Shown: positions 1 to 19,589, numbered from the stretch's first letter. The stretch is 64,000 nt of DNA from Diplonema papillatum (GCA_030068145.1 JAPJBO010001038.1:1-64000); one strand, 5' to 3'. Made by a program: numbers and translations. The notes: generated by a model from the sequence alone, not told the origin.

Positions 1-370
1 ATGCAGTACGTTGCCAACTACCAAATTCTAAGTTCACCTTCTAAGCGCGCGCCAGGCACCGTAGGGTGCAGACGCATTGACGCCACTTCCCGGGGAAGGA
101 GGTTACCCCTGTGTCAGCGAAGCATAAGTCGGATAGTCTGAGGTCGATGTTTGACAGCACATGGTATCCCATGCATTTGTTTGACGCTAAGTTAAGTCTT
201 CGAAGAGAATGTTGGATGCATTAGTAGTAGTCGTTTGAACTTGTTATGCAGCAACAATCTGTGTCGATAGACTGCACATAGTAGTCGTTAGCCGGCGTTG
301 CCAGGTCCCCACATCGCCCGCGCTTCGCCGCTGGACGGAAAACAGAGTCGATGGCAAGCAAGACGGACTG

Positions 371-632
371 TTTTATTTCCCTTCTCTGGGGAAGAGCTGC
401 CGCGCCAAACCTCGCTTCTTTGTACCACATGCGGAGAAAAGAGAAAGAGAGACATAAATAGAGACAGAGAGGGTTTGGAGGAGGACGCTGGCGTGCGTCG
501 GGGCCAGTGAGAAGCACCGGCCACCTTGCTAGATACATCCTGCCGCGGAAAAGGAGCCCTTTCATTCGCTGGGGTCAGCACCCCTGCGGAGGCCCTCTTC
601 CGTGTGCCTTCACGCGGAAGGAAACAGTAGGC
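371..632. repeat. SIRE-like terminal module 'A' (solo copy). A near-identical copy at 1777-2040 forms the 3' end of the DIRS-like element.
   Basis: ~260-bp near-identical direct repeat of 1777-2040 (ttttatttcccttctctggggaagagctgccgcgcc...cggaaggaaacagtaggca), read directly from the sequence. Confidence 0.7.
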
Positions 633-784
633 AGGATTGTATCGGTCTGTGTTGAGCAAGGATTTCTTCTTCCTTGTCGCACAAGGGGAAAGGAGGAGGA
701 AAACAGAAGATCCAGGGCAGTGCGGAGGGGATGCAGTAATCACGCTTCCAGCCTCATGCACGCACGTGCCCGATGCCCTCTGTG

Positions 785-1500
785 GAGCGGAAGGAAGTCA
801 GCCCTCTGCTGAGGGGAAAAGCTGCATAGCCCTCTGCGGAGGGAAAAGCAACGTCATTTCCCGCACGGGGAAGCCCGCCCTCTGCTGAGGGGAAAACGCT
901 GCACGATGCCACCCCTGCTGGGGAGCCCTCTGCGGAGGGAGCGCGACGTCATTTCCCGCACGGGGAAGCCAGCCCTCTGCTGAGGGGAAAACGCTGCACG
1001 ATGCCACCCCTGCTGGGGAGCCCTCTGCGGAGGGAGCGCGACGTCATTTCCCGCACGGGGAAGCCAGCCCTCTGCTGAGGGGAAAACGCTGCACGATGCC
1101 ACCCCTGCTGGGGAGCCCTCTGCGGAGGGAGCGCGACGTCATTTCCCGCACGGGGAAGCCAGCCCTCTGCTGAGGGGAAAACGCTGCACGATGCCACCCC
1201 TGCTGGGGAGCCCTCTGCGGAGGGAGCGCGACGTCATTTCCCGCACGGGGAAGCCAGCCCTCTGCTGAGGGGAAAACGCTGCACGATGCCACCCCTGCTG
1301 GGGAGCCCTCTGCGGAGGGAGCGCGACGTCATTTCCCGCACGGGGAAGCCAGCCCTCTGCTGAGGGGAAAACGCTGCACGATGCCACCCCTGCTGGGGAG
1401 CCCTCTGCGGAGGGAGTGCGACGTCATTTCCCGCACGGGGAAGCCAGCCCTCTGCCGAGGGGAAACGCTGCACGATGCCATCGGGGGACCCTCGCGGAGG
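785..1500. repeat. 95-bp tandem repeat array, ~7 copies.
   Basis: ORF track shows identical 82-aa ORFs phased every 95 bp (854, 949, 1044, 1139, 1234). Unit is GGGAAAACGCTGCACGATGCCACCCCTGCTGGGGAGCCCTCTGCGGAGGGAGCGCGACGTCATTTCCCGCACGGGGAAGCCAGCCCTCTGCTGAG. Confidence 0.9.
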
Positions 1501-1552
1501 GAAGAAGTTCATGGCGCGATACCCTCATCGCATTGGGAGGGAGGGAGGGAAC

Positions 1553-1776
1553 TTTTTTAAGCCCGGCGGAGGTCAACTGACCGGAGCTACCGGGGAGAGT
1601 GTGCTTACGTTGTGTGGTAACCTGATACGTTCGTGTGGTATGCGTCGATTGTCTAATGAGCTTGAAGCCCCGCATGGGCGCTTTGTTCCGTGCTGTGGGC
1701 GCCGCCCGATGCACGCGGTGATTCGTTTGCGACAATAAAACCTGAGGGAAAAAGACTGCGTGTTTATCCCTCTCAA
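1553..1776. repeat. SIRE-like terminal module 'B'. Contiguous with module A' and identical to 5803-6028.
   Basis: 224-bp near-identical direct repeat of 5803-6028 (acttttttaagcccggcggaggtcaactgaccgg...gtgtttatccctctcaa). Confidence 0.7.
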
Positions 1777-2080
1777 TTTTATTTCCCTTCTCTGGGGAAG
1801 AGCTGCCGCGCCAAACCTCGCTTCTTTGTACCACATGCGGAGAAAAGAGAAAGAGAGACATAAATAGAGACAGAGAGGGTTTGGAGGAGGACGCTGGCGT
1901 GCGTCGGGGCCAGTGAGAAGCACCGGCCACCTTGCTAGATACATCCTGCCGCGGAAAAGGAGCCCTTTCATTCGCTGGGGTCAGCACCCCTGCGGAGGCC
2001 CTCTTCCGTGTGCCTTCACGCGGAAGGAAACAGTAGGCATTATTTAAAGACGCCGCGCCCCCCTCCCCCCCCTCAATCTC

Positions 2081-3870
2081 TCAGTCTCTGGTGTCCAGGT
2101 CGGCGACCATGTTCTCGCCCGGAACCAGATGGGTGAGCACGTCCGCATCGCGCAGGCGCTCCTGCATCTCAACGATGAGGCGGTTTTCCGCTGGGTGCGG
2201 GGACGCAAGCTTTCGGTGGCGGCTCTCGGCCGTGCTGTTGTCGTGGAAGACATCCAGCGTCACCCACCCAGTCGTGACGTGTCGAGCCAGCAGGACGCCA
2301 AGAATCGCCGTCACCAGCTCGCGCCGCCGAATCGGCGTCGGCGGAGCCAGCCTCGCCAGCCGATCCTTCCATCTCCAGCTCTCGCGAGCGAGGACGGTCC
2401 GTCGCGTCGGATCCAGGACGACCACCCCACCTCCCTGGTCGGATGCGTCCGTCCAGACGTGCACTCGCCGCGCTGGGCGCCTGACTCTGCGGGGGGAAGC
2501 GTCCCCCAGCCAGCGATCACCAGCTTCCAGCTCCGCGAGCAGCTCCTGCGGGAGCTCCACGAGCGTGTCCCAGTCGCGGTAGGTGAGGCACCTGCCACTC
2601 ACCAGTCGGCTCGCACGCAGCAGCCCGGGATACGCCGCCGCCGGGGACCTCATGACGTACAGTGCCCAGCGCAGGCACCCGATACGCTGTGCCAGGGCCC
2701 GGAAGGACGTCACGCGTTGCGGCTTGTTCGCGCGGCAGACTGCTGCCCATTCCCGCGGGATCGCGATCGTCTTTGTAGCTAGGTCCAGATCCAGACCGTT
2801 GAAGGTACCGACTTGCGAGGGGCCTTGCGCCTTGTCCTCCCGGATCTGGATCCTGGTGTCGGCAAGCACGGCCCTCAGGCTCCGCTCGTCCCGGACGACG
2901 TCGGACCTTGTCCAGCCCCCGTAGGCTATGTCGTCGTAGATCGCCAGACTGCGGCTTCCGATGCCGGCCAGTCGGCGGACCCCCAGGGTCGTCAGCTGGG
3001 CGATCGCCGGCGCGCGCGCAATGCCCGGGACGGCTATCCGGAAGACGTAGTACGCGTTGGCCGCCCTAAACCCCAGGTAGTCCGCCAGCGCGTCGGACAC
3101 CGGAAGCTGGTAGAAGTAGCCCAGCAGGTCTAGGGTCGCGAACCAAGCGTGGTCCAGGACGAAGCCCTCCACATCCCTGAGCGACGGGGTGATGGGGGAC
3201 AGCGGTTGGGAGGTGCGGCTGTCAAAGGGCCTGCCATCGATCAGCAGACGGGTCTCTTCCTTCCCCTTTTTCGGGATTTTGAACACCTTCAGAGTGATCC
3301 GCGGCCTCTTTTCGACTCTCCTAACGACGCCACTCTGCAGCATCACCGCCAGGTCGGCCTCAGTGATGTCCGAGCTCGGTGGAGCGTGGTGCCTCTCGTG
3401 CGAGAGGAGCATGGGCTCTCGCGTCAGCTGGCGCAGGACGCGAATCTCGTCCTCCCACAGGCCTCGCTCGACCTTCCCGTAGTCGGCCTTTGTGACCGGC
3501 ATGGTGTCGATGGGCCCGCGGGACGTTCTGTACACCGGGCTCGGTGCCTTCGTGTACGTCCTCGATGCCAGTTCCGATAGCGCCTCTTCCTGAGCCCGAA
3601 CCCCTTCGACGTGCGTGCTCACGTCCCCGCGCAGCAGCCAGTCTTCCAAGGTCACCGCCCTGTCGAAGTCGGCCTCGCTCTGCTCGCCCATGTCGCCCCG
3701 TAACCGGCTTTCCCCCCATGCGAGCAGGCGGTCCAGATACCCGGCTGCCCCGGGATGGCGGCTGTTTGCCCAGTCCCGCAGGGGATGCGAGCTCTTCAGG
3801 TCCTGTGCGTACTCGGGGCAGAACGTGCTCGTCCTGGCCGCACCCTTCACCTTGAGCACGCCATCAGGTC
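2081..3870 (-). CDS. DIRS ORF3: reverse transcriptase (YDDI motif) plus RNase H (TDAS motif). The 5' end overlaps ORF2 by frameshift.
   Basis: In the 932-aa ORF, residues ~341 onward contain the RT fingers (LKVFKIPKKGKEETRLLIDGRPFD), the catalytic SLAIYDDIAYGG, and RNase H VWTDASDQGGGVVV. The first ~340 aa are a GC-rich spurious extension overlapping ORF2 and ORF1. Confidence 0.7.
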
Positions 3871-4713
3871 GCCGCTCACCGGCGTGTGGAGCAGCAGCGA
3901 CGCGCGAGCCGTCCTCACGCTGTCCGGGGTCAGGCAGCCCCAGAGATAACGCTTCAACGTGTCCTTGGACTGGTGACGGGCCATGAGCAGGAGGTCCTCC
4001 CAGCCCGCCCCGCTTCTGGCCAGGTGCTGGAGCGCCCCTCTCTTCCAGCTGTGCTCTGCACAAACCGGGAACAGCTTCCTCGCTTCCCGCAACAGCTTCC
4101 TCGTCGTGGCCTCGGTGAAGCGAGCCCCCCGCTGCACCCACCTGCTTACTCGCAGCGCCACGCCCAGGGGGACCCGGTAAGTCACCTCTGACTCCCTCAT
4201 ACGAAGGCTCGCCTCCTTCGTGGTCCACCACGAAACTCGGAGCAGACCCGGCCCCACGATGACCACGTCTGTCGGGGCCAGGGCCCGCAGGTCCGCCATC
4301 CGCAGCGCTCCCGCCCACGCCAGGCAGGCAGCCACCGTCACCTGCTCGTCGCCGCCCCTGACCAGCCCCTCGACGAGGGTCCGTTGCTGCTCCAGCGTGA
4401 TCGGGGGGGCATGCGCCGGCACTTCCCTGCGCTCGAGCCTGGCTTTGAGGATGGCCTTCTTCATGGCCGCCAGATCCCCCGACGGCACCCCGAGCTTCGC
4501 CCCCAGCACCTCGACGTACTTGCCGACGGAGGCCGTGCGCATCTCGCCGGTCCTCGGCCTGCCTCTCTGCCCCGGCACCCTCGCGACGTACGCTTCCAAC
4601 TGCTCCTGTGTCATGCCCTTGCCGAGCATGGCGGTCGCGAACGCCTTGATTCTCAGCGCGGGGGGAGCCGCCTGCAACCCCGCCACGGCTGTGAACCGCG
4701 TCAGCGACGCCAC
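3847..4713 (-). CDS. DIRS ORF2: tyrosine recombinase (phage-integrase-like).
   Basis: 288-aa ORF. The C-terminal region (...ARHQSKDTLKRYL...) is consistent with the R...H..R...Y catalytic tetrad of tyrosine recombinases. Position between gag and RT matches VIPER-type DIRS elements. Confidence 0.55.
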   Translation of the reverse strand: MASLTRFTAVAGLQAAPPALRIKAFATAMLGKGMTQEQLEAYVARVPGQRGRPRTGEMRTASVGKYVEVLGAKLGVPSGDLAAMKKAILKARLERREVPAHAPPITLEQQRTLVEGLVRGGDEQVTVAACLAWAGALRMADLRALAPTDVVIVGPGLLRVSWWTTKEASLRMRESEVTYRVPLGVALRVSRWVQRGARFTEATTRKLLREARKLFPVCAEHSWKRGALQHLARSGAGWEDLLLMARHQSKDTLKRYLWGCLTPDSVRTARASLLLHTPVSGDLMACSR

Positions 4714-4815
4714 GATCGACGCCCGCTGCGCCGTCGTCTTCTTCGAGGTCGCGCCGCCCTCGAAAACCGCGACCCGCCTCTCCCACGCGGCAAACCCCCC
4801 TCTCTGGGAGGGGAG

Positions 4816-5778
4816 TCACCCGTTTTTTGTCCTGCGGGAGACGGGCCCGTGCGAGAAACGGCAGTCCACCCTTGTGCATCTGCCTGCTTTGAAATTGCGG
4901 CAGGCCGGCGCCTGACGCGGAGGGACCCCCCGAGCGCGGGGCGGAACCGACTTGGGCGCCGCCTTAAACTGCGCCGTGAACCGGCGCCGGGCCTGCCGCA
5001 CTCTCTCGGGCAGAAGTTCCACCCTCAGCACGTCGCGCATCACTAGCGCTGCGCTGGGGTCGCGGGTCTCGTACTCCGCGTTCTGCTCCTCGTAGGAGTG
5101 GAAGAGCCCCCCCAGGCGGAGGATCCACATTCGTTTCGGGGGACCGGATTCCCCGCGGCGCAGGCGGACGAGGTCACGGACCCGTTCCGTGACATCGTCC
5201 CGCCTGTCCTGCAGCTGTTGGTTCCCTTTGAACCTGTACAGCCTTCGGACTGCGTCCTCAAACCCCCGCATGTTTGCCGCCGTCGGCTGCATTGTTCTCC
5301 ACCGCTCCGGGTCGAGGAACGCGAAGTCGTCATCGTCGTCATCGTCGCCGACGTCCTGCCCCGCGACTGCCGCGCCATCCAGCAGCGCGAGCACCTCGCG
5401 CTCGTCTTCGAGGCTGCCCAGCTCCCGCTGCAGCGTCGGGCCCAGGCCCGCCCAGAACCCTGGGTCCTGCTCGTCAAAGGCGAGAAAGATTTCTTCCGCC
5501 CTCGCCCTCGGCAGGCCGGGCATGAGCTCGGCCGGCATCAGTGGTACCCCCCCCTCTCCCGGTAGCTCCTCTCCGCCTCTTGGCCTCTTGGCCTCCTTCT
5601 CCGCCTCGTCCTGCTCACGTGCCCTCTTCTGGGCAGCGCCGATCTCCCTCTCGGCGGCTTCAACTTCGGCCTCACGCCGGGCCAGGCCTGCCTCGAGATC
5701 GAGAAGGCGCTTCTCCAGGAGAGCCAGCCCCTCCGCGTCTCTCTGCAGGGCGTTCTGCTGTTGCTGCTTGGGGGGCAT
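4816..5778 (-). CDS. DIRS ORF1: gag-like protein with coiled-coil/acidic region and C-terminal CCCH zinc knuckle (CRNFKAGRCTRVDCRFSH).
   Basis: 320-aa ORF with a poly-D tract and a C-x5-C-x4-C-x3-H motif near the C-terminus. Sits at the 5' end of the element. Confidence 0.55.
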   Translation of the reverse strand: MPPKQQQQNALQRDAEGLALLEKRLLDLEAGLARREAEVEAAEREIGAAQKRAREQDEAEKEAKRPRGGEELPGEGGVPLMPAELMPGLPRARAEEIFLAFDEQDPGFWAGLGPTLQRELGSLEDEREVLALLDGAAVAGQDVGDDDDDDDFAFLDPERWRTMQPTAANMRGFEDAVRRLYRFKGNQQLQDRRDDVTERVRDLVRLRRGESGPPKRMWILRLGGLFHSYEEQNAEYETRDPSAALVMRDVLRVELLPERVRQARRRFTAQFKAAPKSVPPRARGVPPRQAPACRNFKAGRCTRVDCRFSHGPVSRRTKNG

Positions 5779-6024
5779 CGCAACTTGGGGAAACTTGGGG
5801 TAACTTTTTTAAGCCCGGCGGAGGTCAACTGACCGGAGCTACCGGGGAGAGTGTGCTTACGTTGTGTGGTAACCTGATACGTTCGTGTGGTATGCGTCGA
5901 TTGTCTAATGAGCTTGAAGCCCCGCATGGGCGCTTTGTTCCGTGCTGTGGGCGCCGCCCGATGCACGCGGTGATTCGTTTGCGACAATAAAACCTGAGGG
6001 AAAAAGACTGCGTGTTTATCCCTC

Positions 6025-6402
6025 TCAAGAAAAATCTGCATACTGGAACTTCGGCGGGACCGTTGGAATCAGCGCTTCCTGTTTCCGGAAGTAGAAGAGG
6101 TTGTGGCGGCCCGGGTTGACTCCCAACGCGGCGTGGAGCATTTCGAGCTCGGTGACCGACTTGCCGGGGGGGCACTCGCCCAGCCAGTCGAAGCAGTGGC
6201 CTGCATTTCTGCGCCTGCTGTTGATCTCGTCGACCGAAACCTGTGTGCGATGGGCTGGTTGGCGACGCGGCCGGCTTTCAACTGTTTCCCGGTGCTGAGT
6301 GGGGGGGAGAGGAACGGTCTTTACTTTTGCATTTTCAGTGGCACATGACCAATTCATTTTGCATTCCCGCCATGTCTTTCGAGCATGTTGTATGTCATTC
6401 AT
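6025..6402 (-). CDS. P-loop NTPase fragment (Walker A 'GECPPGKS'). Candidate next block of the TEP1-like gene. Abuts or is truncated by the DIRS element.
   Basis: The ORF C-terminal part CFDWLGECPPGKSVTELEMLHAALG matches GxxxxGK[ST]. It is colinear and same-strand with the DUF4062 block at 7.8-8.0 kb. Confidence 0.3.
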   Translation of the reverse strand: MNDIQHARKTWRECKMNWSCATENAKVKTVPLPPTQHRETVESRPRRQPAHRTQVSVDEINSRRRNAGHCFDWLGECPPGKSVTELEMLHAALGVNPGRHNLFYFRKQEALIPTVPPKFQYADFS

Positions 6403-7166
6403 ACCATCATTCTAATCGGCATTCCTCTTCATGAATCGCGAACGATCCTTTCCGTGGAATGTTAACACCGCCACTTGAGGTTATCGAGGCGAGGTCATGC
6501 CAGAATAGTTAGCCATGTCACTAGAGCGGAGTGCTGCTCCGATTCAGAATGTGATTGACTCACTCTAGTGATTTGCAGTCTTGCCAAATGATTGCCAGTC
6601 TCTTTCATTCGCCAGCTATGATTTCATTCCATGCGTGGTTAACCATCATACTACTAACGCCCCTCGGTACAGTGCCTTCCGGGAGGAGAGGGGAAAACGG
6701 GGAACACGGAATAGTTGAGCCGCTTCGTTTTGTTTGTGCGTGCCGATTGATCGTGTTTCCACTTGTCCTGTGGATCATTTTCACGGTTGGGAATTCTGAT
6801 CAAGCACCAAAACACGCTGCCTACATCTTTTTCGCCTGCAGCACAGTACACTTTTAAAGTTTCAGCGGGACAAACTCCGCAGCCAGGCAGTGGCTGGTTT
6901 CTCATTCCCAAGTGTCGAAGCGGTCTGGACAGTTCCTTGGCACATGCTAGCATCGCCTGCTGTCGAACCCGAGTAACAACAGCAGAGTCAGCAACTGATC
7001 CATGATGTCCATGATAATGCTCCAACACTCAAAAGGAAAGGGGGTTTCACGTTCCAGGGTGTAAAACTCTCGAAGGGGCTTTTTCCCCGTGGTTGCACTC
7101 GTTCGTTTGTGCTTCGTTCTCAGTACTCACCTGCAGACGTGTTCCGGAAGTGTTCCCTTCAGTACG

Positions 7167-7535
7167 GTGCTACTAAGAAAACACTTTCCCTTCAGTACGG
7201 TGCTACTAAGAAAACACTTTCCCTTCAGTACGGTGCTACTAAGAAAACACTTTCCCTTCAGTACGGTGCTACTAAGAAAACACTTTCCCTTCAGTACGGT
7301 GCTACTAAGAAAACACTTTCCCTTCAGTACGGTGCTACTAAGAAAACACTTTCCCTTCAGTACGGTGCTACTAAGAAAACACTTTCCCTTCAGTACGGTG
7401 CTACTAAGAAAAACTTTCCCTTCAGTACGGTGCTACTAAGAAAACACTAGTACGGTGCTACTAAGAAAACACTTTCCCTTCAGTACGGTGCTACTAAGAA
7501 AACACTTTCCCTTCAGTACGGTGCTACTAAGAAAA
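7167..7535. repeat. 33-bp tandem repeat, ~11 copies (CCTTCAGTACGGTGCTACTAAGAAAACACTTTC).
   Basis: Perfect 33-bp periodicity seen in the sequence and in the 11-aa-periodic ORFs. Confidence 0.9.
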
Positions 7536-7718
7536 CACTCGACGTTGCTGCTTTGACTCCGAATGGAAGGGGAGATACAGAGGTAAATACGCAAACACAA
7601 TACACAATCTGATTTGTTCTTCGCTCACACCACCGTGTGTTGTTTTCTCACTCAGGACTTGACCTGTTCAGTTTGTGGGTCTTGTCGTGTAGGTAGACTC
7701 GCATGACCTCACGTCCGT

Positions 7719-8864
7719 TCAACACGTGGTTCGGTAGTTGCAGCACTTGGGATTCCTCTGGATCGCATTTCCCCTTCCAAGCTGGCATGTAAAAGAAATG
7801 GAAAAAGGGGTGAAAGGGAGAAGGGGAAGGAAATAGAATACGTTGTAAGAGGAGGGCGTGTGGCCATAACGGTCCCCCACGAGTCCTATGAAGAAAGGCT
7901 TGCAGCGTTCGACTTCGTTGAGGCACAGAGACGTCGATAGGCCATTGTCGGCGTCTTGGGACGTGATGCCCCACCGCAGGTCGATGTCAACCAGCCGGAT
8001 TTTGTACCCGCGCGCGGCACACCAGCGTCGCAGGGTGGGGAATACTTCGGTGGACAACAGGTGCCGCTCGGTTTGCATGTCGAGGAACGTCGACGAAATA
8101 AAGACGCGGATCGTGGCCCATCCCCCTGAAGCGCCGTCCGTGCTCGTGACGGCGAGGGACCCCATGTGCGACTGCATGTGCGACTGAGACCGCGCGGCCG
8201 TCTCGTTCTCTTCGTACTCTTCTTCCTCCTCCGCTTCTTCTTCATCGCTGGGGCCGACGCTGGGCTTCTCTTCCGTTTCCTCGCTCTCTTCGTCTTCCTC
8301 TTCTTCTTCGGCGTCGCCGGCGCATCCTTTTCCTCCGACCCTCGGCCCTGCCAGCATCTCGAAGTTGACCTTGTCCTTCTTCACGCGCTTCACCTCGTCT
8401 ATCCGTTCGACGTACTCCAACTGCGCAGCGCCCCGCTCCGCTACGAAGCGAAGGATCGAATCGGAGAACCCCGTAACGTACGCGTCGTTCGTCGCGTCCG
8501 ACGGCAGCTTGCAGCCGCCGCCGCCGGCGATGTCCACCGAGATGTAGAACAGATCGGGGTTGATCAGCTGCCGCATCTTCTTCACGTACGCCGACAGGCC
8601 CCCGTTGCGCAGCGGATTCTCGTCGGAGAAGTCCTGCCCGCTGTCGCCGACGGCGCTGTCGTCGATCACGATCAAGTTGTCGACCCACGTCTGTGTTGTT
8701 GGACTAAGTATGCTGGAGGACCCTTTTCCCCGGACGTAAAAGCTAACGTTGCAGGTGCAGCAAAGGATGACTATGTATTCGAGAAACAACAACAGGGTGC
8801 TGCCAGCGAGCCCCGATTCGACTGTCTGAGACACAAAACGTGCATTGAAAGCATCGAACCGCAT
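7719..8864 (-). CDS. TEP1/Ro60-like gene block: C-terminal vWA part of the TROVE module, an acidic linker, and a DUF4062-like domain.
   Basis: 'AYVKKMRQLINPDLFYISVDIAGGGG...GFSDSILRFV' resembles the Ro60/TEP1 vWA C-terminus. 'IRVFISSTFLDMQTERHLLSTEVFPTLRRWCAARGYKIRLVDIDLRWG' resembles DUF4062, which is found N-terminal to NACHT in TEP1/NWD proteins. The last ~45 aa of the ORF (KCCNYRTTC) run into a dispersed repeat and are probably not coding. Confidence 0.5.
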   Translation of the reverse strand: MRFDAFNARFVSQTVESGLAGSTLLLFLEYIVILCCTCNVSFYVRGKGSSSILSPTTQTWVDNLIVIDDSAVGDSGQDFSDENPLRNGGLSAYVKKMRQLINPDLFYISVDIAGGGGCKLPSDATNDAYVTGFSDSILRFVAERGAAQLEYVERIDEVKRVKKDKVNFEMLAGPRVGGKGCAGDAEEEEEDEESEETEEKPSVGPSDEEEAEEEEEYEENETAARSQSHMQSHMGSLAVTSTDGASGGWATIRVFISSTFLDMQTERHLLSTEVFPTLRRWCAARGYKIRLVDIDLRWGITSQDADNGLSTSLCLNEVERCKPFFIGLVGDRYGHTPSSYNVFYFLPLLPFTPFSISFTCQLGRGNAIQRNPKCCNYRTTC

Positions 8865-10039
8865 CGCGATGACTCGAGTTCTCTAACGGCCTCGGGTGAT
8901 GCTTGTCCTAGCCAGGGGGATACCCGCCGATATTCCTGCACCCCGGACCCCCACTCCGGATTGTGGGAGTGGTTTTGCGGTCGTTTGTGCGGTCGGCCTC
9001 ACTCCCTCAATGCGGGAGTGGCCACTCCCGCATTGACTTAGTATATGGCTGCTGAAGTCCGGGTGTCCTTAATGACTTCCTTATTTGGACCATCGTCGAA
9101 AGGGTTCCTATATGGTATCGTATTCTGGTTTGCATATCGTACCTGTGGCAGTACCAGTGCGTGTGCATGTGTCTGTCCTTGTTGCCCATTGCCGACTATG
9201 TGTTGGTGTCGTTCCTTCCCGATCTTGCGCCAGGGTAGAACTCGAAACAAATCGTTGACTGTGCAGGCCACGGATGACTATTTATAAAACAACGTGGAGC
9301 TTCTTTAACAAGTTAGCAAGCTGCCATGACTGCGCTGATCCGTATTTCTGGCGGGAGGCTAACGGATACAGCGATGCAAAGATGCAACGATGCAAAGAAC
9401 TTCGAAATACTCGACGTAGCTGCATTGTTAACTACTTAAGGACGGAGGGGGGCAGGGTTAAATTTGGGAAAAGGGCTCCACGTCGATGCGGTTCGACGTT
9501 ACCCTCGCCAGAGGGAGCCCCGCGTCCGCCCGCCTACCCGGAGCCACTCGACACCCTGGAAGTGAGGGCGTCGACGAGTAGGTCGAGCTGGACACGTTGT
9601 CCGAGGCTTCGTCGTACACCGCCAGCCCGCCCGCGATGCCCTGCAGCCGCCTCTGCAGCCCTGCAAGACGCGACGCATCCCGACCCACTCCGCCTACACG
9701 GCCACCGCGACCGGCCGGCTGCGGGCCCCCAACGGCAAGCACCCACGTCGGCGAGAGCGAACGGCGGCCGCACCCGTCCCCGCGGCGCTTTCCCCCGTCC
9801 ACCCTCGGTCGCTTCCTCACCCAGCGACCAAAGGCCTGCCGCTCGTCGTCCGGCTCGTCCGCCCGACTGCGGCCGTCCACCCGCACCACGCGCTCCACCG
9901 GACGGGTTGTGGGCCCTCCCGTCCATCTCTTCCACGCGCGCGTCCATGTCACCGCCATTCTAACCCTACCATTCGGAGTCCCGAGAGCAGTAAGGCGGTT
10001 AGTCACGCCTTAGCAGTCCCAGGGCCTCTCCCCTCCCAC

Positions 10040-10997: not shown

Positions 10998-13545
10998 GGA
11001 TTGGGGGGGAAAATGTTTCTTGGGTTTGAAGAGCGCGTGGTGCTTGCACCACTGAGGCCAGGTTATTTAACCGCGGATTTAGTGAAGGATTGTTCAGGAA
11101 ACGGTCGCGAGCGAAACCCGACCAGGTAACGACCATTTCACTGTCTTCTTTGTTTTGTGATGCGAACATCACGAGGTGCTGTCCGAAGACACCGCCCACG
11201 TGAGCACTGTTAAGCAGCGGTTGCCAGATACTCCCGTAGCACCTATTCACGGGTTTGCAGGGGTAAAAAGGAAGCCCGGGTTGGGGAGGGTGGTGGGTTT
11301 GGTGCGTAGTATTCTTCTTTTTTTGTTCTTTCTCGGTTCTGGTGGTGCTGCTCCTTCCTTCTCGTCCTGTGTTGGGTTACGACTTTTTTTGTTCTTTATC
11401 GGTTCTGAGCGTTTCCATATGCCTTTTCCTGCTTTGACATGCAGTCCCTTCCAAACTGTACCTCTCTTGGTGTTCGGGGGTTGGGCCGTATGGTAACGTC
11501 TCGGGAAACGAAGTGTTGTTGTTTGTGGCGTCACAAAAGCGACAAATTGCCAAAGCAACCGGGTGCCGAGCTTAAGCAAGGCGTTTGTCAATGGAGAACC
11601 AGTCCTGTGCCGTTTTAGGGCCGGCAGGTCTCAACGGGGGGAAAATGTTTCTTGGGTTTGAAGAGCGCGTGGTGCTTGCACCACTGAGGCCAGGTTATTT
11701 AACCGCGGATTTAGTGAAGGATTGTTCAGGAAACGGTCGCGAGCGAAACCCGACCAGGTAACGACCATTTCACTGTCTTCTTTGTTTTGTGATGCGAACA
11801 TCACGAGGTGCTGTCCGAAGACACCGCCCACGTGAGCACTGTTAAGCAGCGGTTGCCAGATACTCCCGTAGCACCTATTCACGGGTTTGCAGGGGTAAAA
11901 AGGAAGCCCGGGTTGGGGAGGGTGGTGGGTTTGGTGCGTAGTATTCTTCTTTTTTTGTTCTTTCTCGGTTCTGGTGGTGCTGCTCCTTCCTTCTCGTCCT
12001 GTGTTGGGTTACGACTTTTTTTGTTCTTTATCGGTTCTGAGCGTTTCCATATGCCTTTTCCTGCTTTGACATGCAGTCCCTTCCAAACTGTACCTCTCTT
12101 GGTGTTCGGGGGTTGGGCCGTATGGTAACGTCTCGGGAAACGAAGTGTTGTTGTTTGTGGCGTCACAAAAGCGACAAATTGCCAAAGCAACCGGGTGCCG
12201 AGCTTAAGCAAGGCGTTTGTCAATGGAGAACCAGTCCTGTGCCGTTTTAGGGCCGGCAGGTCTCAACGGGGGGAAAATGTTTCTTGGGTTTGAAGAGCGC
12301 GTGGTGCTTGCACCACTGAGGCCAGGTTATTTAACCGCGGATTTAGTGAAGGATTGTTCAGGAAACGGTCGCGAGCGAAACCCGACCAGGTAACGACCAT
12401 TTCACTGTCTTCTTTGTTTTGTGATGCGAACATCACGAGGTGCTGTCCGAAGACACCGCCCACGTGAGCACTGTTAAGCAGCGGTTGCCAGATACTCCCG
12501 TAGCACCTATTCACGGGTTTGCAGGGGTAAAAAGGAAGCCCGGGTTGGGGAGGGTGGTGGGTTTGGTGCGTAGTATTCTTCTTTTTTTGTTCTTTCTCGG
12601 TTCTGGTGGTGCTGCTCCTTCCTTCTCGTCCTGTGTTGGGTTACGACTTTTTTTGTTCTTTATCGGTTCTGAGCGTTTCCATATGCCTTTTCCTGCTTTG
12701 ACATGCAGTCCCTTCCAAACTGTACCTCTCTTGGTGTTCGGGGGTTGGGCCGTATGGTAACGTCTCGGGAAACGAAGTGTTGTTGTTTGTGGCGTCACAA
12801 AAGCGACAAATTGCCAAAGCAACCGGGTGCCGAGCTTAAGCAAGGCGTTTGTCAATGGAGAACCAGTCCTGTGCCGTTTTAGGGCCGGCAGGTCTCAACG
12901 GGGGGAAAATGTTTCTTGGGTTTGAAGAGCGCGTGGTGCTTGCACCACTGAGGCCAGGTTATTTAACCGCGGATTTAGTGAAGGATTGTTCAGGAAACGG
13001 TCGCGAGCGAAACCCGACCAGGTAACGACCATTTCACTGTCTTCTTTGTTTTGTGATGCGAACATCACGAGGTGCTGTCCGAAGACACCGCCCACGTGAG
13101 CACTGTTAAGCAGCGGTTGCCAGATACTCCCGTAGCACCTATTCACGGGTTTGCAGGGGTAAAAAGGAAGCCCGGGTTGGGGAGGGTGGTGGGTTTGGTG
13201 CGTAGTATTCTTCTTTTTTTGTTCTTTCTCGGTTCTGGTGGTGCTGCTCCTTCCTTCTCGTCCTGTGTTGGGTTACGACTTTTTTTGTTCTTTATCGGTT
13301 CTGAGCGTTTCCATATGCCTTTTCCTGCTTTGACATGCAGTCCCTTCCAAACTGTACCTCTCTTGGTGTTCGGGGGTTGGGCCGTATGGTAACGTCTCGG
13401 GAAACGAAGTGTTGTTGTTTGTGGCGTCACAAAAGCGACAAATTGCCAAAGCAACCGGGTGCCGAGCTTAAGCAAGGCGTTTGTCAATGGAGAACCAGTC
13501 CTGTGCCGTTTTAGGGCCGGCAGGTCTCAACGGGGGGGGGGGAGC
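10998..13545. repeat. 632-bp tandem repeat, 4 copies, ending in a poly-G tract.
   Basis: Identical ORF triplets recur every 632 bp (11631/12263/12895 and 11176/11808/12440/13072). The unit starts with gggggaaaatgtttcttgggtttgaag. Confidence 0.9.
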
Positions 13546-13699
13546 TTTACTGTATCGGGCTTGACTTTAACTCATGCTTCAGCCAGGTTGCCCACTCTGC
13601 CTTATCGCTAGGCTCCTGAAAGCGTACCCTTTCGCATACACACTGCATAACTGAAGAACCAGGAGTCGTCCAGGATTTGCCAATACGTCGCATCACGGC

Positions 13700-14580
13700 G
13701 CCCGTAGATTTGCGCCAGGTCTCCGGTTGACCATTGAAGAGGTGTATGGTGCAAGAGTTTCATGGACTCCTACGCTTGGAAAGGTCCCGTTACACATCTA
13801 TTCACAGCAGCAAAAACTGATCCTTTCTGCCGTACACGCGGGGGACCTCGTTGCCTCGGTTCCCGGTGCAGCTTCCGTTTCCGCGGTCGCGTGCCACTCT
13901 CTTTCTCTTTTCTAGAGTTATAGTTCGCTTGAGAATCCGGGATTTTAGAGTCTCCGGGTGACCTTGTCGAATGGGTTCTTTTAAAGCTAATACGTACTGG
14001 GTGGGTTTGGGGGGGCATGCATGACTTCTTTCGTGTACACTTTATTTGCTTGCTGACAAGTTAGGTTCGTATCAATTTGTGGTATAAGCTCCTGCCTTGT
14101 GACGTGTGCTGCGTAGTCCAGACGAAGCACACGTAAATCTGGGGTTGGCGGCGGGCGTAAGCGTTCGACTGAAAAGACTACATTCCTCGAAGGAATGCAC
14201 TTGGTTTTGGTCACGAACAGTCTCGGACATGGCTAGCCTTTACTCAAACTGAAGGTTTACACCTAAGAAACAACCCGCACCCACATAGCCCTTGCTTGCT
14301 CTACGAGAACCCATTTAACGAAGGCAAGTCATCCGGAGACCTAAAATCTCGGAATATCAAGCGAACTTAACTCTATGAAGGGAACAGTTTGCAGTGTTGT
14401 ATGCTCCCCCATGTAGCCTTCGTCGCAATAAGCACCGGGCGGCCCCTCCGAATGTTTCTTGTCGTATACGATCGAAGATAGATGGTTGATCCTCCACAAG
14501 GGACACATATTTAGAGTGCAAGTTCGCTTAGGGATCCGGGGTTTTGTAGTCTCCGGGTGAACATTGTCATAATAAGGTAT
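13700..14580. repeat. Cluster of short dispersed-repeat modules (...GAGTTAAAGTTCGCTTGA.ATTCCGGG.TTTTAG.GTCTCCGG.TGACC...) in both orientations.
   Basis: Related copies at 13915-13995 (+), 14215-14380 (-), 14505-14575 (+). Further copies at 19925-19990 (-) and 42960-43040 (+). Confidence 0.6.
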
Positions 14581-14924
14581 AGTATGTTAGTGTGCGTATC
14601 GGATCTGCTGTAGTGGCAGTACGTGTACTCGTGCGTGTATCTTTGTTGCGGAGAGAAGCCCTGGGACTGCTAAGGCAAGACGAACCACCTCACAGCTTTC
14701 AGGCCAAAGGAGGGGGGCGATGCCGACGACGTGGGCGCACGCAAGGCGCTCGCCACCATCGGGAAGGCGGGGCGGGGCCCACACTCTTTGGCTTGTATTG
14801 ATGCTCTCGGGAAAGGTCAGCGCGGTGCCGATGATCACGAGAACACGTAAGGTGGGTGGGAGAGGCACCTGTATGAACCACGTACTTGTCATGCGTATGA
14901 CACGTAAGAACGTGATACGAAAGG

Positions 14925-15200
14925 TGCTTGTAAAATACTCGAGGGACTGCCTTGTGCTCATTTCTACGGAGGCTAGTGGGGGAGAAAACAATACAACTAC
15001 TAGGTGGGCTCTTTTTAGAGTTAAAGTTTTTGTTGAACGCTTACGCCCGCCACTAAACCCAGATTTACCTGTGTTTCGTGTGGGCTACAGCACACTTACC
15101 TCCCAGATTTACCTGTGTTTTGTGTGGGCTACAGCATATTTACCTCCTTCGAGATTTTGCAACTGGCAGTCTCCTCAAGTATTTCCCTTAAGGAATTGCC
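14925..15200. repeat. Dispersed repeat family (~250 bp). Other copies at 26128-26340 and 59890-59970, with an inverted partial copy at 14125-14170.
   Basis: Long near-identical stretches (aatactcgagggactgccttgtgctcatttc...cgcttacgcccgccactaaacccagatttacctgtgtttcgtgtgggctacagcaca.ttacctcc...ctggcagtctcctcaagcatttcc). Confidence 0.7.
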
Positions 15201-15254
15201 TAGGAATTGGCTTGTGGAGGTGATTTTGCCTTGTTTTTTTGCATTCTGCAGCCA

Positions 15255-15773
15255 TTATTTCAGCCTAAACGAGCGTCCGACCACGTTTCCCGCCCTTTCG
15301 GAGCGTTTTATGGCACCTGAGTGGTAGGTTTCAAGTTTAGGGCTTCTGGCTTGCGTATACAAGAAAGGTAATACCTTGAGGATGTGCGCGCCCAGATCGA
15401 TGCGGATGGCTTCGTAGGCTGAGAAGAAGCGGTACGGGAAGAGCCGGCTTTTCGTGACCTGCTCCGGGTTGCGAAGGCGATCCTGCACCTTTTTGTGGTG
15501 CGCGGCGCTGATCCCGGACAGGATGAAGTTCCGGATGTTGCGGACCATCGCCATGAACGGCAGCGGCGGCGACATGTCGAGCAGCTTCTCCCACGTGTCG
15601 GCCGTATTGCCCTCCTTCGCCAGCATCACCTCCCACGTGTCCGGCACGTCCAACTTCATCCTCTTCCCCGCGCGTTCCCCGTCGAACTCATGCGTTGCAG
15701 CGAGTCCAGTCTTCTCAAACTCACCCTCGGTAGTCGGGTATCGCTGGCCTGTAATACACATGACGTGGTACAC
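15255..15773 (-). CDS. TROVE-domain middle block of the Ro60/TEP1-like gene.
   Basis: 'LLDMSPPLPFMAMVRNIRNFILSGI...RLFPYRFFSAYEAI' matches the conserved Ro60/TEP1 TROVE core (LLxxLPxxALLRNLGKM...HPFHILIALETY). The ORF track start is GTG. The flanks have acceptor-like TGTATTACAG|G and donor-like CTCAAG|GTATTA. Confidence 0.5.
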   Translation of the reverse strand: MYHVMCITGQRYPTTEGEFEKTGLAATHEFDGERAGKRMKLDVPDTWEVMLAKEGNTADTWEKLLDMSPPLPFMAMVRNIRNFILSGISAAHHKKVQDRLRNPEQVTKSRLFPYRFFSAYEAIRIDLGAHILKVLPFLYTQARSPKLETYHSGAIKRSERAGNVVGRSFRLK

Positions 15774-16213
15774 GGGCTTCTCTACGTGCAGAGATCGGAT
15801 CAGCCGCTTGATCGTGTAAACCCGGGCGGTCAGCGCGTCGTCTGAGTCGTCTCCACCTCGGAGCTGCCCTGTGTTGTCGGCAAGGGGTAAGGGAAGGTGT
15901 AAGCAGGCCTTACATTCAGCATGCTGAACGTACTGATTTCAGCACGTTAATTTTCTTAGTTTCTTTTTTGTACACATGCTGAATCAGTACGTGTACACGT
16001 GCTGGAATCAGTACGCTATCAGCACGTGCTATCTTTTCTGCAGATTCATCTGGGGAATCACAACCGCAGTAACGGCAGCTCCTGCTGTTGCTTACCACCG
16101 CGACACTGGAGGGTTGAGGCCGGAGAGGAGGCAGAGGCAAAGACATGCCACACTGGCAGGTGAGCTCCCTACGGCCACACTGGCAGGTGAGCTCGCTACG
16201 CGCGAGCTCCCTA

Positions 16214-16443
16214 CCATGCAGGGTCAAAACCTTGTGTCTTTTTGGAAATGGCCAAAAAAAAAAAATTCAGGAAAAAAATGGGTTTTTTGAATTTTAAAAG
16301 TTTGGAACAAACTCTGCAGTAATTTTTGAGGAAGTTGAGCAAAAAAAAAAATTTCCAAAAAAATTTTTAGGGCTCCATCGGCCCCGCGGGAGCGTTTTAA
16401 TAAGACACAAGGTTTTGACCCTGCATGCTACGTTCTATTTCTG
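16214..16443. mobile_element. MITE copy 1 (~225 bp): TIR CATGCAGGGTCAAAACCTTGTGTCTT, TA-flanked.
   Basis: Perfect ~26-bp terminal inverted repeats. AT-rich internal region with poly-A runs. Flanking TA on both sides. Confidence 0.8.
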
Positions 16444-17018
16444 TTTTTGCCTGACCCTACGTACTGATTATCAGTAGGTATTTAAAGAGCTGCGTAAGCC
16501 CTGGGTGTGAGGTGCAAGGGCGAAGCGTGGGTGCCGCGCGTTTTGGCTGCACGAGTGCAGAAAAAGTGGTCGAATGCTCGTTTAAGCTCGAAGAAAGGCC
16601 GCAGGATCCGAATTCAAGGAGAAATCACCCTCCGTAGTGTCATTCCCTAGAAACCCAAAAAAAAACAGCCACAAAACGAGCCCGACTAGCATCCAACCCT
16701 CCAGGGTACCCAAAAAACATCCGGGGAGTCCCCGAAAACTTGCTCTAGAACGGTGCGGGTTGAAGAAACGGCCAGAAAATGTCCCACCCCACGGGTAAGC
16801 TACGGCCGCAGCTTGCAACCCTGTCTCCTGTGCTGCCGCCGTCGCCAACGATCTAGCCGAATAAATGTACGTCAAAAATATTTTCGGAAAGAACTCCCAC
16901 ACGCCAAATTTTCTTCCGGTTTCCGCTTATTCTTCAAACACGGCAAGAATGAATGCTGGCGTTGGGGTAGAGTAGCCGCCGCTTTGTGCGGATGCTTCGT
17001 GAGTTCAGTGTTCAGTGT

Positions 17019-17435: not shown

Positions 17436-17445
17436 CAGTGTGTAT

Positions 17446-19533: not shown

Positions 19534-19589
19534 CAGGGGGCAGCTTATGATGCGTCGTTCTCCGGTTTGAGTTCTCTTCGCGGCCTTTA

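What the first reader, a model, noticed from the sequence alone, without database searches (positions are those of the whole stretch)
362..6028. VIPER-like DIRS retrotransposon with split SIRE-like ends, next to a unit that uses the same ends around a 95-bp tandem array
The complete element (1777-6028, minus strand) begins with module B' (5803-6028) and ends with module A' (1777-2040). On the flank, B and A occur contiguously (1553-2040) as a ~490-bp unit. That is the architecture described for T. cruzi VIPER, which starts with the first part and ends with the last part of a SIRE.

Immediately 3' of the element there is a second unit. Module B (1553-1776) and a solo module A (371-632) bracket a 95-bp ×7 tandem array (785-1500) instead of ORFs. 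This looks like a non-autonomous derivative, or a satellite captured between SIRE halves. It suggests these terminal modules can mobilise arbitrary internal DNA.
Basis: partly seen in the sequence, partly recalled or inferred. Interest (0 to 1): 0.55.

Follow-up and report, generated by a model that had tools for sequence, protein, structure and literature searches.

The report
One complete VIPER-like diplonemid retrotransposon
The two "units" are a single 5.7-kb tyrosine-recombinase retrotransposon of the marine protist Diplonema papillatum; it has the split-repeat ends already described for trypanosome VIPER elements, so it is an ordinary mobile element in a host group where this kind had not been reported.

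Summary
One module occurs at 371-638 and 1777-2044, the other at 1547-1776 and 5799-6028 (both ~100% identical). A 95-bp x7 array lies between them. The window is from Diplonema papillatum, not Trypanosoma cruzi.

On the minus strand the layout is A1 - gag-like ORF - tyrosine recombinase - RT/RNase H - B1 - A2 - X (908 bp, holds the array) - B2. This is the split-direct-repeat architecture published in 2019 for complete VIPER and TATE elements. There, SIRE is simply the A2-spacer-B2 region. So the "second unit" is the element's own 3' end, not a neighbouring element.

Two intact relatives (37-43% protein identity) from another diplonemid genome show the same layout. Each has a ~0.9-1.1 kb spacer containing tandem repeats. 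One sits in a satellite array as a single unit, in phase and without target-site duplication.

Gene order, split repeats, absence of duplication and recombinase affinity are VIPER-like. The reverse transcriptase is less derived: it keeps YDD where kinetoplastid elements have IDN.

Verdict: a new diplonemid member of the known VIPER-like group, with an unusually long repeat-bearing spacer. Interest is modest.

The parts
5799..6028 (-). The element's 5' end is at 6028 (5'-TTGAGAGGGATAAAC...). A1 ends about 20 nt upstream of the ORF1 ATG.
   Evidence: Identical to 1547-1776. Only two copies exist in the window. Termini were read.
4816..5778 (-). ORF1, Gag-like, 320 aa. It has an N-terminal coiled-coil-like Glu/Ala/Arg-rich region and a C-terminal CCCH zinc knuckle (C-x7-C-x4-C-x3-H).
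   Evidence: ORF list. Weak zf-CCCH Pfam hits, E 4e-4, below the curated cut-off. The homologous first ORF in L001 also carries CCCH.
4714..4818 (-). A single in-frame TGA (4816-4818) ending ORF1, followed by an open linker in the same frame. ORF2 has no ATG. The inference is a Gag-YR fusion by stop-codon readthrough.
   Evidence: Frame analysis. The arrangement (same frame, one TGA, no ATG) is the same in L001 and L002. T. cruzi VIPER ORF1 (1-1341) and ORF2 (1342-2359) are likewise contiguous in frame.
3847..4713 (-). ORF2, tyrosine recombinase, 288 aa as listed. Candidate catalytic residues: R138 (ALRMADL), K166 (WWTTKEA), H221/R225 (HSWKRGAL), H247, Y256.
   Evidence: No Pfam hit. The AlphaFold2 model (pLDDT 80.5) matches Cre, XerA, XerH and Tn1549 integrase (Foldseek E 8e-6, probability 1.0). 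These residues are invariant across 6 homologues. 100% identical to DIPPA_16546.
2081..3850 (-). ORF3, reverse transcriptase plus RNase H. Motif C is IYDDIAYGG. RNase H motifs are WTDASDQGGG, RRRELV, FHDNSTAES and MVADLDTRD. ORF3 starts at the GTG of a GTGA overlap with the ORF2 stop (3847-3850), in the -1 frame.
   Evidence: 100% identical to 'putative enzymatic polyprotein [Diplonema papillatum]'. Pfam RVT_1 matches all 4 family members, best E 1.3e-5, below the curated cut-off. The family profile hits Ty3 RT 4ol8_A at E 6e-5. The overlap was read (ATGA in L001; GTGA here and in L002). RNase H motifs were read by eye only.
1777..2044 (-). It begins about 36 nt after the ORF3 stop.
   Evidence: Identical to 371-638.
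1547..1776 (-). A2: the internal copy of the 5' terminal repeat. It abuts B1 directly. The B1|A2 junction (1777|1776: ...GGGAAATAAAA|TTGAGAGGG...) reproduces the element's 3' end joined to its 5' end.
   Evidence: The role of the junction is inferred by analogy with the DIRS-1 internal complementary region, shown experimentally to be essential (PMC7192593).
639..1546 (-). X: a 908-bp non-coding spacer between A2 and B2. It contains the 95-bp x ~7 tandem array (about 785-1502). It is the counterpart of the ~30-bp 'SIRE-exclusive' internal region of T. cruzi.
   Evidence: It shows no similarity to the ORF region or to anything else in the window. There is no Rfam match. The RNA fold is no more stable than shuffles, z = +0.44. 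Equivalent spacers of 869 and 1074 bp with tandem repeats occur in L001 and L002.
371..638 (-). B2: the 3' terminal repeat. The element's 3' end is at 371 (...GGGAAATAAAA-3').

Best explanation
Window 371-6028 (minus strand) is one intact, recently inserted, autonomous tyrosine-recombinase retrotransposon of Diplonema papillatum. It belongs to the VIPER-like group of the DIRS order. Its layout is A1 - Gag-like - YR - RT/RNase H - B1 - A2 - X - B2.

Shown here:
- the three coding modules and their order;
- the two pairs of identical split direct repeats;
- the internal B1|A2 junction that equals the end-to-start junction;
- the absence of a target-site duplication;
- conservation of the whole layout, including a ~1-kb tandem-repeat-bearing X, in two distant relatives.

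Inferred by analogy with the DIRS-1/Ngaro model:
- The element is transcribed from within A1 to within B2.
- Gag-YR is made by readthrough of the single in-frame UGA.
- RT/RNase H is made by a -1 shift or reinitiation at the (A/G)UGA overlap.
- The cDNA's incomplete ends are restored and joined using the internal B1|A2 junction as template.
- The recombinase inserts the resulting molecule without duplicating the target.

The 'second unit' (371-1776) is the A2-X-B2 tail of this element. It is the structural equivalent of T. cruzi SIRE. X is a permissive slot whose sequence is free to vary.
For: - Repeats and coordinates.
- Host and copy number: the RT is 100% identical to a D. papillatum protein whose cluster has 14 members, with 84% and 79% paralogue clusters of 8 and 3. 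The YR is 100% identical to DIPPA_16546.
- YR fold. RT.
- L001 has the same layout: A1 7361-7778, gag, YR, RT, B1 11841-12024, A2 12024-12441, X with 186x2 and ~130x2 repeats, B2 13311-13494. The whole unit interrupts an 83-bp satellite that resumes in phase (913 = 11x83) with at most 1 nt of ambiguity.
- L002 also has the same layout: A1 8682-8869 ... B1 12781-12849, A2 12988-13175, X with a 132x2 repeat, B2 14250-14318.
- Published architecture: complete VIPER/TATE copies have A1 ... B1-A2-B2, and SIRE = A2 + ~30 bp + B2 (PMC6681497; PMC12278014).
- Orientation is fixed. All 3 diplonemid elements here, and the 11 kinetoplastid copies tabulated with a full split-repeat pattern, have the ORFs before B1-A2. 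That argues the ends are set by the transcript, not by a random cut at either junction.
- Expression signals are conserved in all three elements.
- The host of L001/L002 is another diplonemid. Relatives are transcribed in Lacrimia lanifica and Flectonema neradi.
Against: - No other D. papillatum copy could be read: the genome is not in the searchable DNA collections and the look-up of encoding contigs failed. Within-species constancy of A2-X-B2 is therefore untested.
- Only three intact elements were compared, and two come from one assembly.
- X has no demonstrated function.
- T. cruzi SIRE does exist as thousands of dispersed solo copies, so A-x-B units can occur on their own.
- Every mechanistic step (transcript ends, readthrough, circle formation, integration) is inferred and not observed.
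- ORF3 begins with GTG, not ATG, in this copy.
Confidence: 0.85

Rival explanations
1. There are two elements in tandem. An autonomous element (A-ORFs-B, 1777-6028) lies head-to-tail with a separate non-autonomous SIRE-like element (A-X-B, 371-1776). This could arise if a circular copy of one integrated by site-specific recombination into the other. The two could then move independently.
For: - T. cruzi SIRE is a dispersed short element with exactly the A-x-B structure. Ribeiro et al. leave open whether it is mobilised in trans.
- DIRS-1 is reported to insert preferentially into pre-existing copies.
- A circle carrying two identical B|A junctions could in principle be resolved by the recombinase into an A-ORFs-B circle and an A-X-B circle (inference).
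Against: - The composite is present in 3 of 3 intact family members at about 40% protein identity. Both repeat pairs are 100% identical in each.
- In L001 the composite was inserted as one unit into a satellite, in phase.
- No solo A-X-B or solo A/B copy exists in the 64-kb window.
- The order is always ORFs first.
- The literature defines this composite as the complete element.
Confidence: 0.1
2. The array region is a chance nested insertion, a captured satellite, or an assembly artefact that happens to sit between a duplicated end of an ordinary element.
For: - The D. papillatum assembly is 52% repeats, and its authors warn of artificially duplicated or collapsed repeats.
- The 95-bp array is nearly homogeneous (98% matches), as after a recent expansion.
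Against: - Spacers of similar size, each with its own tandem repeats, occupy the same position in two independent relatives from a different assembly.
- X carries no termini, ORFs or duplication of its own.
- The repeats flanking X are exactly the pairs that the split-direct-repeat model predicts.
Confidence: 0.03
3. It is an Ngaro-, PAT- or DIRS1-type element rather than VIPER-like.
For: - Split direct repeats also define Ngaro and PAT.
- The RT scores best against a DIRS-group profile (37 bits versus 5 for VIPER) and keeps the canonical YDD motif.
Against: - Gene order is gag-YR-RT/RNase H, not gag-RT/RNase H-YR.
- There are no inverted terminal repeats or DIRS-1-style internal complementary region.
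- The YR scores 24-28 bits against VIPER, TATE and Bodo profiles versus 11 or less for DIRS, Ngaro and Crypton.
- In neighbour-joining trees the RT groups with VIPER+TATE (bootstrap 70) and never with DIRS (0 of 100). The YR falls inside the VIPER+TATE+Bodo assemblage (bootstrap 41).
Confidence: 0.02

Closest known systems
VIPER of Trypanosoma cruzi / Crithidia fasciculata, complete copies with split direct repeats (Ribeiro et al. 2019, PMC6681497), and its SIRE portion
   Same: - Three ORFs in the order Gag-like, YR, RT/RNase H.
- A1 at the 5' end and B1-A2-B2 at the 3' end, with about 100% identical pairs.
- Repeat sizes of the same order: 173/219 bp in T. cruzi versus 230/268 bp here.
- ORF1 and ORF2 contiguous in one frame.
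- No target-site duplication.
- The HS-x-K-R-G-A-L and (A/G)-[RK]-H...Y-L recombinase motifs.
- The A2-spacer-B2 region corresponds to SIRE.
   Different: - The host is a diplonemid, not a kinetoplastid.
- No nucleotide similarity was found to the one SIRE/VIPER segment tested (its first 60 nt).
- The A2-B2 spacer is 908 bp with a 95-bp x7 array, versus about 30 bp in T. cruzi. In C. fasciculata at most ~14-143 bp is left for it (arithmetic).
- RT motif C is YDD, versus IDN in all kinetoplastid VIPER/TATE sequences of the published alignment.
- Gag has a CCCH knuckle rather than the CCHC box.
- Protein similarity is remote: YR 27 bits to the VIPER profile.
TATE (telomere-associated transposable element) of Leishmania (Viannia) and other trypanosomatids
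   Same: - Same ORF order and the same split direct repeats.
- The YR profile score is as high as for VIPER (28.0 versus 27.5 bits).
- The RT clusters with VIPER+TATE in the neighbour-joining tree.
   Different: - TATE recombinases are much longer (up to ~1000 aa) with N-terminal extensions.
- RT motif C is IDN.
- The diplonemid clade does not group specifically with TATE (0 of 100 bootstraps).
Ngaro-like and PAT-like elements (DIRS order)
   Same: - Split direct repeats A1 ... B1-A2-B2.
- YR-mediated insertion without target duplication.
- Canonical YxDD reverse transcriptase.
   Different: - Their YR lies downstream of RT/RNase H.
- PAT elements also encode a methyltransferase.
- YR and RT profile or tree affinity is low.
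DIRS-1 of Dictyostelium
   Same: - Tyrosine recombinase plus RT/RNase H.
- An internal sequence reproduces the joined ends. In DIRS-1 this is the internal complementary region, experimentally essential (PMC7192593). Here it is the B1|A2 junction.
   Different: - DIRS-1 has inverted terminal repeats and a complementary, not direct, internal junction.
- Its ORF arrangement is different.

Membership tests
VIPER-like group (VIPER + TATE) of DIRS-order retrotransposons, sensu Ribeiro et al. 2019 | Three coding modules in the order Gag-like, tyrosine recombinase, RT/RNase H | tested here: met
   ORFs at 5778-4816, 4713-3847 and 3850-2081. YR fold. RT. Same order in L001 and L002.
VIPER-like group (VIPER + TATE) of DIRS-order retrotransposons, sensu Ribeiro et al. 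2019 | Split direct repeats: A1 at the 5' end, B1-A2-B2 at the 3' end | tested here: met
   A1 5799-6028 = A2 1547-1776. B1 1777-2044 = B2 371-638. B1 abuts A2.
VIPER-like group (VIPER + TATE) of DIRS-order retrotransposons, sensu Ribeiro et al. 2019 | No target-site duplication on insertion | tested here: met
   The window flanks share nothing. The L001 insertion in the 83-bp satellite is in phase with at most 1 nt of ambiguity.
VIPER-like group (VIPER + TATE) of DIRS-order retrotransposons, sensu Ribeiro et al. 2019 | The tyrosine recombinase is related to the VIPER/TATE recombinases rather than to DIRS, Ngaro, Crypton or bacterial ones | tested here: met
   Profiles built from the published alignment score VIPER 27.5, TATE 28.0 and Bodo 24.1 bits, versus DIRS 11.0, bacterial 10.9, Ngaro 7.7, Crypton 6.9 and Xer 2.4. 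The neighbour-joining tree places it inside the VIPER+TATE+Bodo assemblage, but with only 41% bootstrap.
VIPER-like group (VIPER + TATE) of DIRS-order retrotransposons, sensu Ribeiro et al. 2019 | The reverse transcriptase is related to the VIPER/TATE RTs | tested here: inconclusive
   Profile scores point the other way: DIRS 37.3, VIPER 5.4, TATE 3.7 bits. Motif C is YDD, not IDN. The neighbour-joining tree nevertheless groups diplonemid + VIPER + TATE at 70% bootstrap and never groups it with DIRS. Long-branch effects are not excluded.
VIPER sensu stricto with SIRE (Trypanosoma cruzi) | The ends are the first ~182 bp and last ~220 bp of the SIRE sequence (nucleotide homology) | tested here: not met
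   The first 60 nt of T. cruzi VIPER/SIRE give only chance 9-10-nt matches in the window. The host is D. papillatum. The full SIRE consensus was not available to test.
VIPER sensu stricto with SIRE (Trypanosoma cruzi) | A2 and B2 are separated by only a ~30-bp internal region | tested here: not met
   The spacer is 908 bp with a 95-bp x7 array.
Ngaro-like / PAT-like | The recombinase is encoded downstream of RT/RNase H | tested here: not met
   The YR (4713-3847) lies upstream of the RT (3850-2081) on the coding strand.
DIRS1-like | Inverted terminal repeats plus an internal complementary region | tested here: not met
   The only inverted pair found in 1-8000 is a 30-nt, 70% match inside the ORFs.
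LTR retrotransposon | Two complete direct LTRs at the ends, a DDE integrase, and a 4-6-bp target duplication | tested here: not met
   The end repeats are two different modules. There is no integrase ORF. There is no target duplication.

The most novel reading that the evidence does not exclude
Diplonemids carry a third, previously undescribed branch of VIPER-like retrotransposons that keeps an ancestral-looking (YDD) reverse transcriptase. In this branch the A2-B2 interval has become a kilobase-sized, freely exchangeable 'cargo slot' that breeds tandem arrays.

The element carries two identical B|A junctions. Its own recombinase could therefore split a circular copy into an A-ORFs-B circle and an A-X-B circle. 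That would give SIRE-like non-autonomous elements able to spread arbitrary DNA or satellite seeds. It would also explain the origin of T. cruzi SIRE.
Probability: 0.15. Interest if true: 0.55.

Novelty: new member of a known kind. Interest (0 to 1): 0.3.

Why it matters
- **Host range.** In the 2019 survey, VIPER and TATE were found only in Kinetoplastida. I found no paper linking them to diplonemids. Intact, multi-copy, transcribed relatives in several diplonemids push this group back at least to the common ancestor of kinetoplastids and diplonemids.
- **Phylogeny.** Kinetoplastid VIPER/TATE reverse transcriptases carry mutated conserved residues and were left out of a recent phylogeny for that reason (PMC12440569). 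The diplonemid copies keep canonical motifs, so they could help place the whole group among tyrosine-recombinase retroelements.
- **Annotation.** In GenBank these genes are labelled 'enzymatic polyprotein', 'hypothetical protein' or 'Endo-1'. The D. papillatum genome paper lists TATE-like ORFs among DNA transposons. Recognising the full 5.7-kb unit would improve repeat annotation of a genome that is 52% repeats.
- **Open question.** The long, variable spacer gives a natural test of what the SIRE-equivalent region tolerates.

Tried and rejected
- **Other D. papillatum copies.** The look-up of encoding contigs returned 'not on record' for P0001, P0002, P0003 and P0008.
- **Metagenome scan.** A scan with the RT profile found no relatives.
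- **Loci L003 and L004.** These more distant RT hits are degenerate RT fragments without gag, YR or split repeats, so they are uninformative.
- **Pfam.** It gives nothing for the recombinase and only sub-threshold RVT_1 and CCCH hits. Structure prediction and profile searches were needed instead.
- **Structured RNA in the 95-bp array.** Rejected. The fold energy equals that of shuffles (z = +0.44) and there is no Rfam hit.
- **X as an internally deleted copy of the ORF region.** Rejected. X has no similarity to 2045-5798.
- **Conserved nucleotide motifs in A, B or X across the three elements.** None beyond chance-level matches of 15-23 nt at E 0.01 or weaker.
- **Classification from the RT profile scores alone (DIRS best).** Considered and not adopted, because the tree, the recombinase and the gene order disagree.

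Full report
**1. Observation**

- One module is present at 371-638 and 1777-2044 (268 nt, 99%; 263 nt are 100% identical).
- A second module is present at 1547-1776 and 5799-6028 (230 nt; the only mismatch is at the inner edge).
- Probes of 35-36 nt from each module occur exactly twice in the 64-kb window. Shuffled sequence gives 0.00 expected matches.
- Between 639 and 1546 lies a 95-bp tandem array. Tandem Repeats Finder reports 828-1480, 6.9 copies, 98% matches. Degenerate copies extend it to about 785-1502.
- Three long minus-strand ORFs occupy 2081-5778.

**2. Source organism**

- The RT/RNase H translation is 100% identical to 'putative enzymatic polyprotein [Diplonema papillatum]'. That protein's cluster has 14 members. 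Paralogue clusters at 84% and 79% identity have 8 and 3 members.
- ORF2 is 100% identical to DIPPA_16546.
- The window is therefore from the diplonemid D. papillatum, not from T. cruzi. The family is multi-copy there.
- The D. papillatum genome paper describes transposable elements only in general terms. It does not mention DIRS, VIPER or tyrosine-recombinase retroelements (PMC10161547).

**3. Coding content**

- **ORF1** (5778-4816, 320 aa) is Gag-like. It has a coiled-coil-like N-terminal part and a C-terminal CCCH zinc knuckle. The Pfam hits are weak and below the curated cut-off.
- **ORF2** (4713-3847) has no Pfam match.
  - Its AlphaFold2 model (pLDDT 80.5) matches Cre, XerA, XerH and Tn1549 integrase over both domains (Foldseek E 8e-6, probability 1.0).
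  - The expected catalytic residues are invariant among six homologues: R138, K166, H221/R225, H247, Y256.
  - ORF2 is a tyrosine recombinase (YR).
- **ORF3** (3850-2081) is a reverse transcriptase plus RNase H.
  - A profile of the family hits Ty3 RT and HIV-2 RT in the PDB.
  - RVT_1 is detected in all four members tested, below the curated cut-off.
  - The YDD motif and DIRS-type RNase H motifs are visible in the sequence. The RNase H motifs were read by eye only.
- The gene order is therefore gag - YR - RT/RNase H.

**4. Architecture on the coding strand**

In the published VIPER nomenclature the element reads:

A1 (6028-5799) - ORFs - B1 (2044-1777) - A2 (1776-1547) - X (1546-639) - B2 (638-371)

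- B1 abuts A2. The junction (...GGGAAATAAAA|TTGAGAGGG...) is exactly the element's 3' end joined to its 5' end.
- The flanks show no target-site duplication.

**5. Relatives**

The exhaustive RT/RNase H profile search found few close relatives: 17 proteins at E <= 1e-30. Two of them gave intact elements in long contigs of ENA assembly ERZ25333217.

- **L001** (RT 43% identical):
  - A1 7361-7778; gag (with CCCH); YR; RT; B1 11841-12024; A2 12024-12441.
  - An 869-bp X with 186-bp x2 and ~130-bp x2 repeats; B2 13311-13494. Both repeat pairs are 100% identical.
  - The whole unit interrupts an 83-bp satellite that resumes in phase (913 = 11 x 83). Only a single T is ambiguous at the boundary.
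- **L002** (YR 37% identical):
  - A1 8682-8869; ORFs; B1 12781-12849; a 138-bp gap; A2 12988-13175.
  - A 1074-bp X with a 132-bp x2 repeat; B2 14250-14318.

The A, B and X sequences of the three elements share no nucleotide similarity. Only the architecture is conserved.

The host of that assembly is another diplonemid. Its peptidase M3 is closest to:
- Lacrimia lanifica, 63%
- Diplonema ambulator, 61%
- D. japonicum, 59%
- Rhynchopus euleeides, 59%
- Flectonema neradi, 56%
- D. papillatum, 54%

Relatives of the RT are also present in the transcriptomes of Lacrimia lanifica and Flectonema neradi.

**6. What is already known**

Ribeiro et al. 2019 (PMC6681497) reported the following:
- Complete VIPER copies of T. 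cruzi Dm28c and C. fasciculata, and TATE of L. braziliensis, carry split direct repeats 'A1 at the 5' end and B1, A2 and B2 at the 3' end'.
- In T. cruzi, A is 173 bp and B is 219 bp, both pairs 100% identical.

The window matches this description point for point. The ~490-bp contiguous block is the internal B1|A2 junction, not a SIRE.

The one clear structural difference is the size of the spacer.
- It is 908, 869 and 1074 bp in the three diplonemid elements, each with tandem repeats.
- It is about 30 bp in T. cruzi.
- For two C. fasciculata copies, subtracting the ORF span and repeat sizes from the copy lengths leaves only about 14 and 143 bp.

**7. Classification tests**

I built group profiles and neighbour-joining trees from the published YR and RT alignments (supplements 18 and 16).

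*Recombinase*
- The window YR scores 27.5 bits (VIPER), 28.0 (TATE) and 24.1 (Bodo).
- It scores 11.0 (DIRS), 10.9 (bacterial), 7.7 (Ngaro), 6.9 (Crypton) and 2.4 (Xer).
- In the tree the diplonemid YRs are monophyletic (100%). They fall inside the VIPER+TATE+Bodo assemblage, next to VIPER proper, with weak support (41%).

*Reverse transcriptase*
- The profile scores point the other way: DIRS 37.3, retroviral 23.4, VIPER 5.4, TATE 3.7 bits.
- The window RT has the canonical YDD motif. Every kinetoplastid VIPER/TATE sequence in the alignment has IDN.
- The RT tree nevertheless groups diplonemid + VIPER + TATE at 70% bootstrap and never groups it with DIRS.
- My reading: this is a less-derived lineage of the VIPER-like group, distinct from both VIPER proper and TATE. 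The RT evidence alone is inconclusive.

A second D. papillatum family (P0084, annotated 'Gag-Pro-Pol polyprotein') has a YR upstream of an RT whose motif C is VDN, all in one ORF.

**8. Expression signals**

These are shown in sequence; the mechanisms are inferred.
- In all three elements ORF1 and ORF2 are in the same frame. They are separated by a single TGA, with no ATG for ORF2.
- The ORF2 TGA overlaps (A/G)TG of ORF3 in the -1 frame: ATGA in L001, GTGA in the window and L002.
- T. cruzi VIPER ORF1 (1-1341) and ORF2 (1342-2359) are likewise contiguous in frame.
- The most likely reading is a Gag-YR fusion by UGA readthrough. RT/RNase H would follow by frameshift or termination-reinitiation.

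**9. Mechanism**

All steps below are inferred.
- In DIRS-1, the internal region that reproduces the joined termini has been shown experimentally to be essential. It restores full-length cDNA from a transcript that lacks the extreme ends (PMC7192593).
- The B1|A2 junction is the direct-repeat equivalent of that region.
- I propose four steps:
  1. transcription from within A1 to within B2;
  2. reverse transcription;
  3. repair and joining of the ends on the B1|A2 template;
  4. YR-mediated insertion without target duplication.
- The ORFs always precede B1-A2. This holds in 3 of 3 elements here and in the 11 kinetoplastid copies tabulated with a full split-repeat pattern. It argues that the ends are fixed by the transcript, not by a random cut at either of the two identical junctions.
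- X lies in a position that tolerates arbitrary sequence. No structured RNA was found there (z = +0.44). No Rfam family matches. X has no similarity to the ORF region.

**10. Rival explanations**

- **Tandem pair of an autonomous and a SIRE-like non-autonomous element.** This is topologically equivalent and cannot be fully excluded without a genome survey. It is disfavoured for three reasons. The composite is conserved in distant relatives. It was inserted as a single unit in L001. No solo units exist in the window.
- **Chance nested insertion or assembly artefact.** This is contradicted by the equivalent spacers in an independent assembly.
- **Ngaro, PAT or DIRS1 membership.** This fails on gene order and on end structure.

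**11. Limits**

- No other D. papillatum copy could be read.
- A metagenome scan found nothing.
- Two further loci were degenerate fragments.
- The trees are neighbour-joining trees on short trimmed alignments.
- No mechanistic step has been observed.

**12. Verdict**

The finding is real. It is an intact VIPER-like split-direct-repeat retrotransposon. The kind is known. The host group is new, and the A2-B2 spacer is unusually long and repeat-bearing. I found no paper reporting such elements in diplonemids. Interest is modest.

Noticed in passing
L002:6189-8675 and L002:14331-16817: The related element in L002 is bracketed by a 2487-bp direct duplication of host DNA (99.96% identical, containing a protein-kinase gene). 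The duplication starts about 6 bp and 12 bp from the element ends. A tyrosine recombinase should not make such a duplication. Possible causes are homologous integration of a circle carrying element plus host DNA, a segmental duplication, or an assembly artefact of a heterozygous insertion.
   Followed up: partly
L001:698-7361 and 13494-21797; L003:9708-11963; L004:1560-5972; window 7153-7539: At four of the five loci carrying this RT family, a long tandem array of 56-117-bp units lies inside or within about 2 kb of the element. L001 has an 83-bp satellite of more than 14 kb on both sides. L003 has a 56-bp x ~40 array directly after the RT. L004 has a 117-bp x 38 array. The window has its internal 95-bp array plus a 33-bp x 12 array. 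L002 has only its internal 132-bp x2 repeat. The L001 satellite is unrelated to that element's own X repeats. Whether this association is more than the general repeat richness of diplonemid genomes was not tested.
   Followed up: partly
window 17834-17868: A 35-nt stretch (GCCCTCTTCCGTGTGCAATCACGCGGAAGGAAAC) is 94% identical to part of repeat module B (about 592-626 and 1998-2032). It is a short imperfect hairpin that lies near the start of B, just after the ORF3 stop. Nothing else around 17.8 kb resembles the element. It may be a relic of an old copy or a shared short motif.
   Followed up: partly
window 6029-6402 joined to 1-370 (minus strand): Removing the element in silico joins a 125-aa ORF that ends at the insertion point (its stop codon lies inside A1) to about 43 further in-frame codons. 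The insertion may interrupt an ORF or intron. No homology check was run on the joined ORF.
   Followed up: no
P0084 (KAJ9473756.1, Diplonema papillatum; not in the window): D. papillatum has a second, distant family, annotated 'Gag-Pro-Pol polyprotein'. It has a VIPER/TATE-type recombinase domain (residues 512-664) fused upstream of an RT (781-1103) in one ORF. Its RT motif C is VDN, like the kinetoplastid IDN.
   Followed up: partly
window 7719-8864, 44899-48843, 56131-57558 (all minus strand): The host genes identified in the window are a DUF4062 protein, an ABC transporter with transmembrane region 2, and a Cys/Met-metabolism PLP enzyme. All lie on the same strand as the element. This fits the co-directional gene clusters reported for Diplonema.
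   Followed up: no
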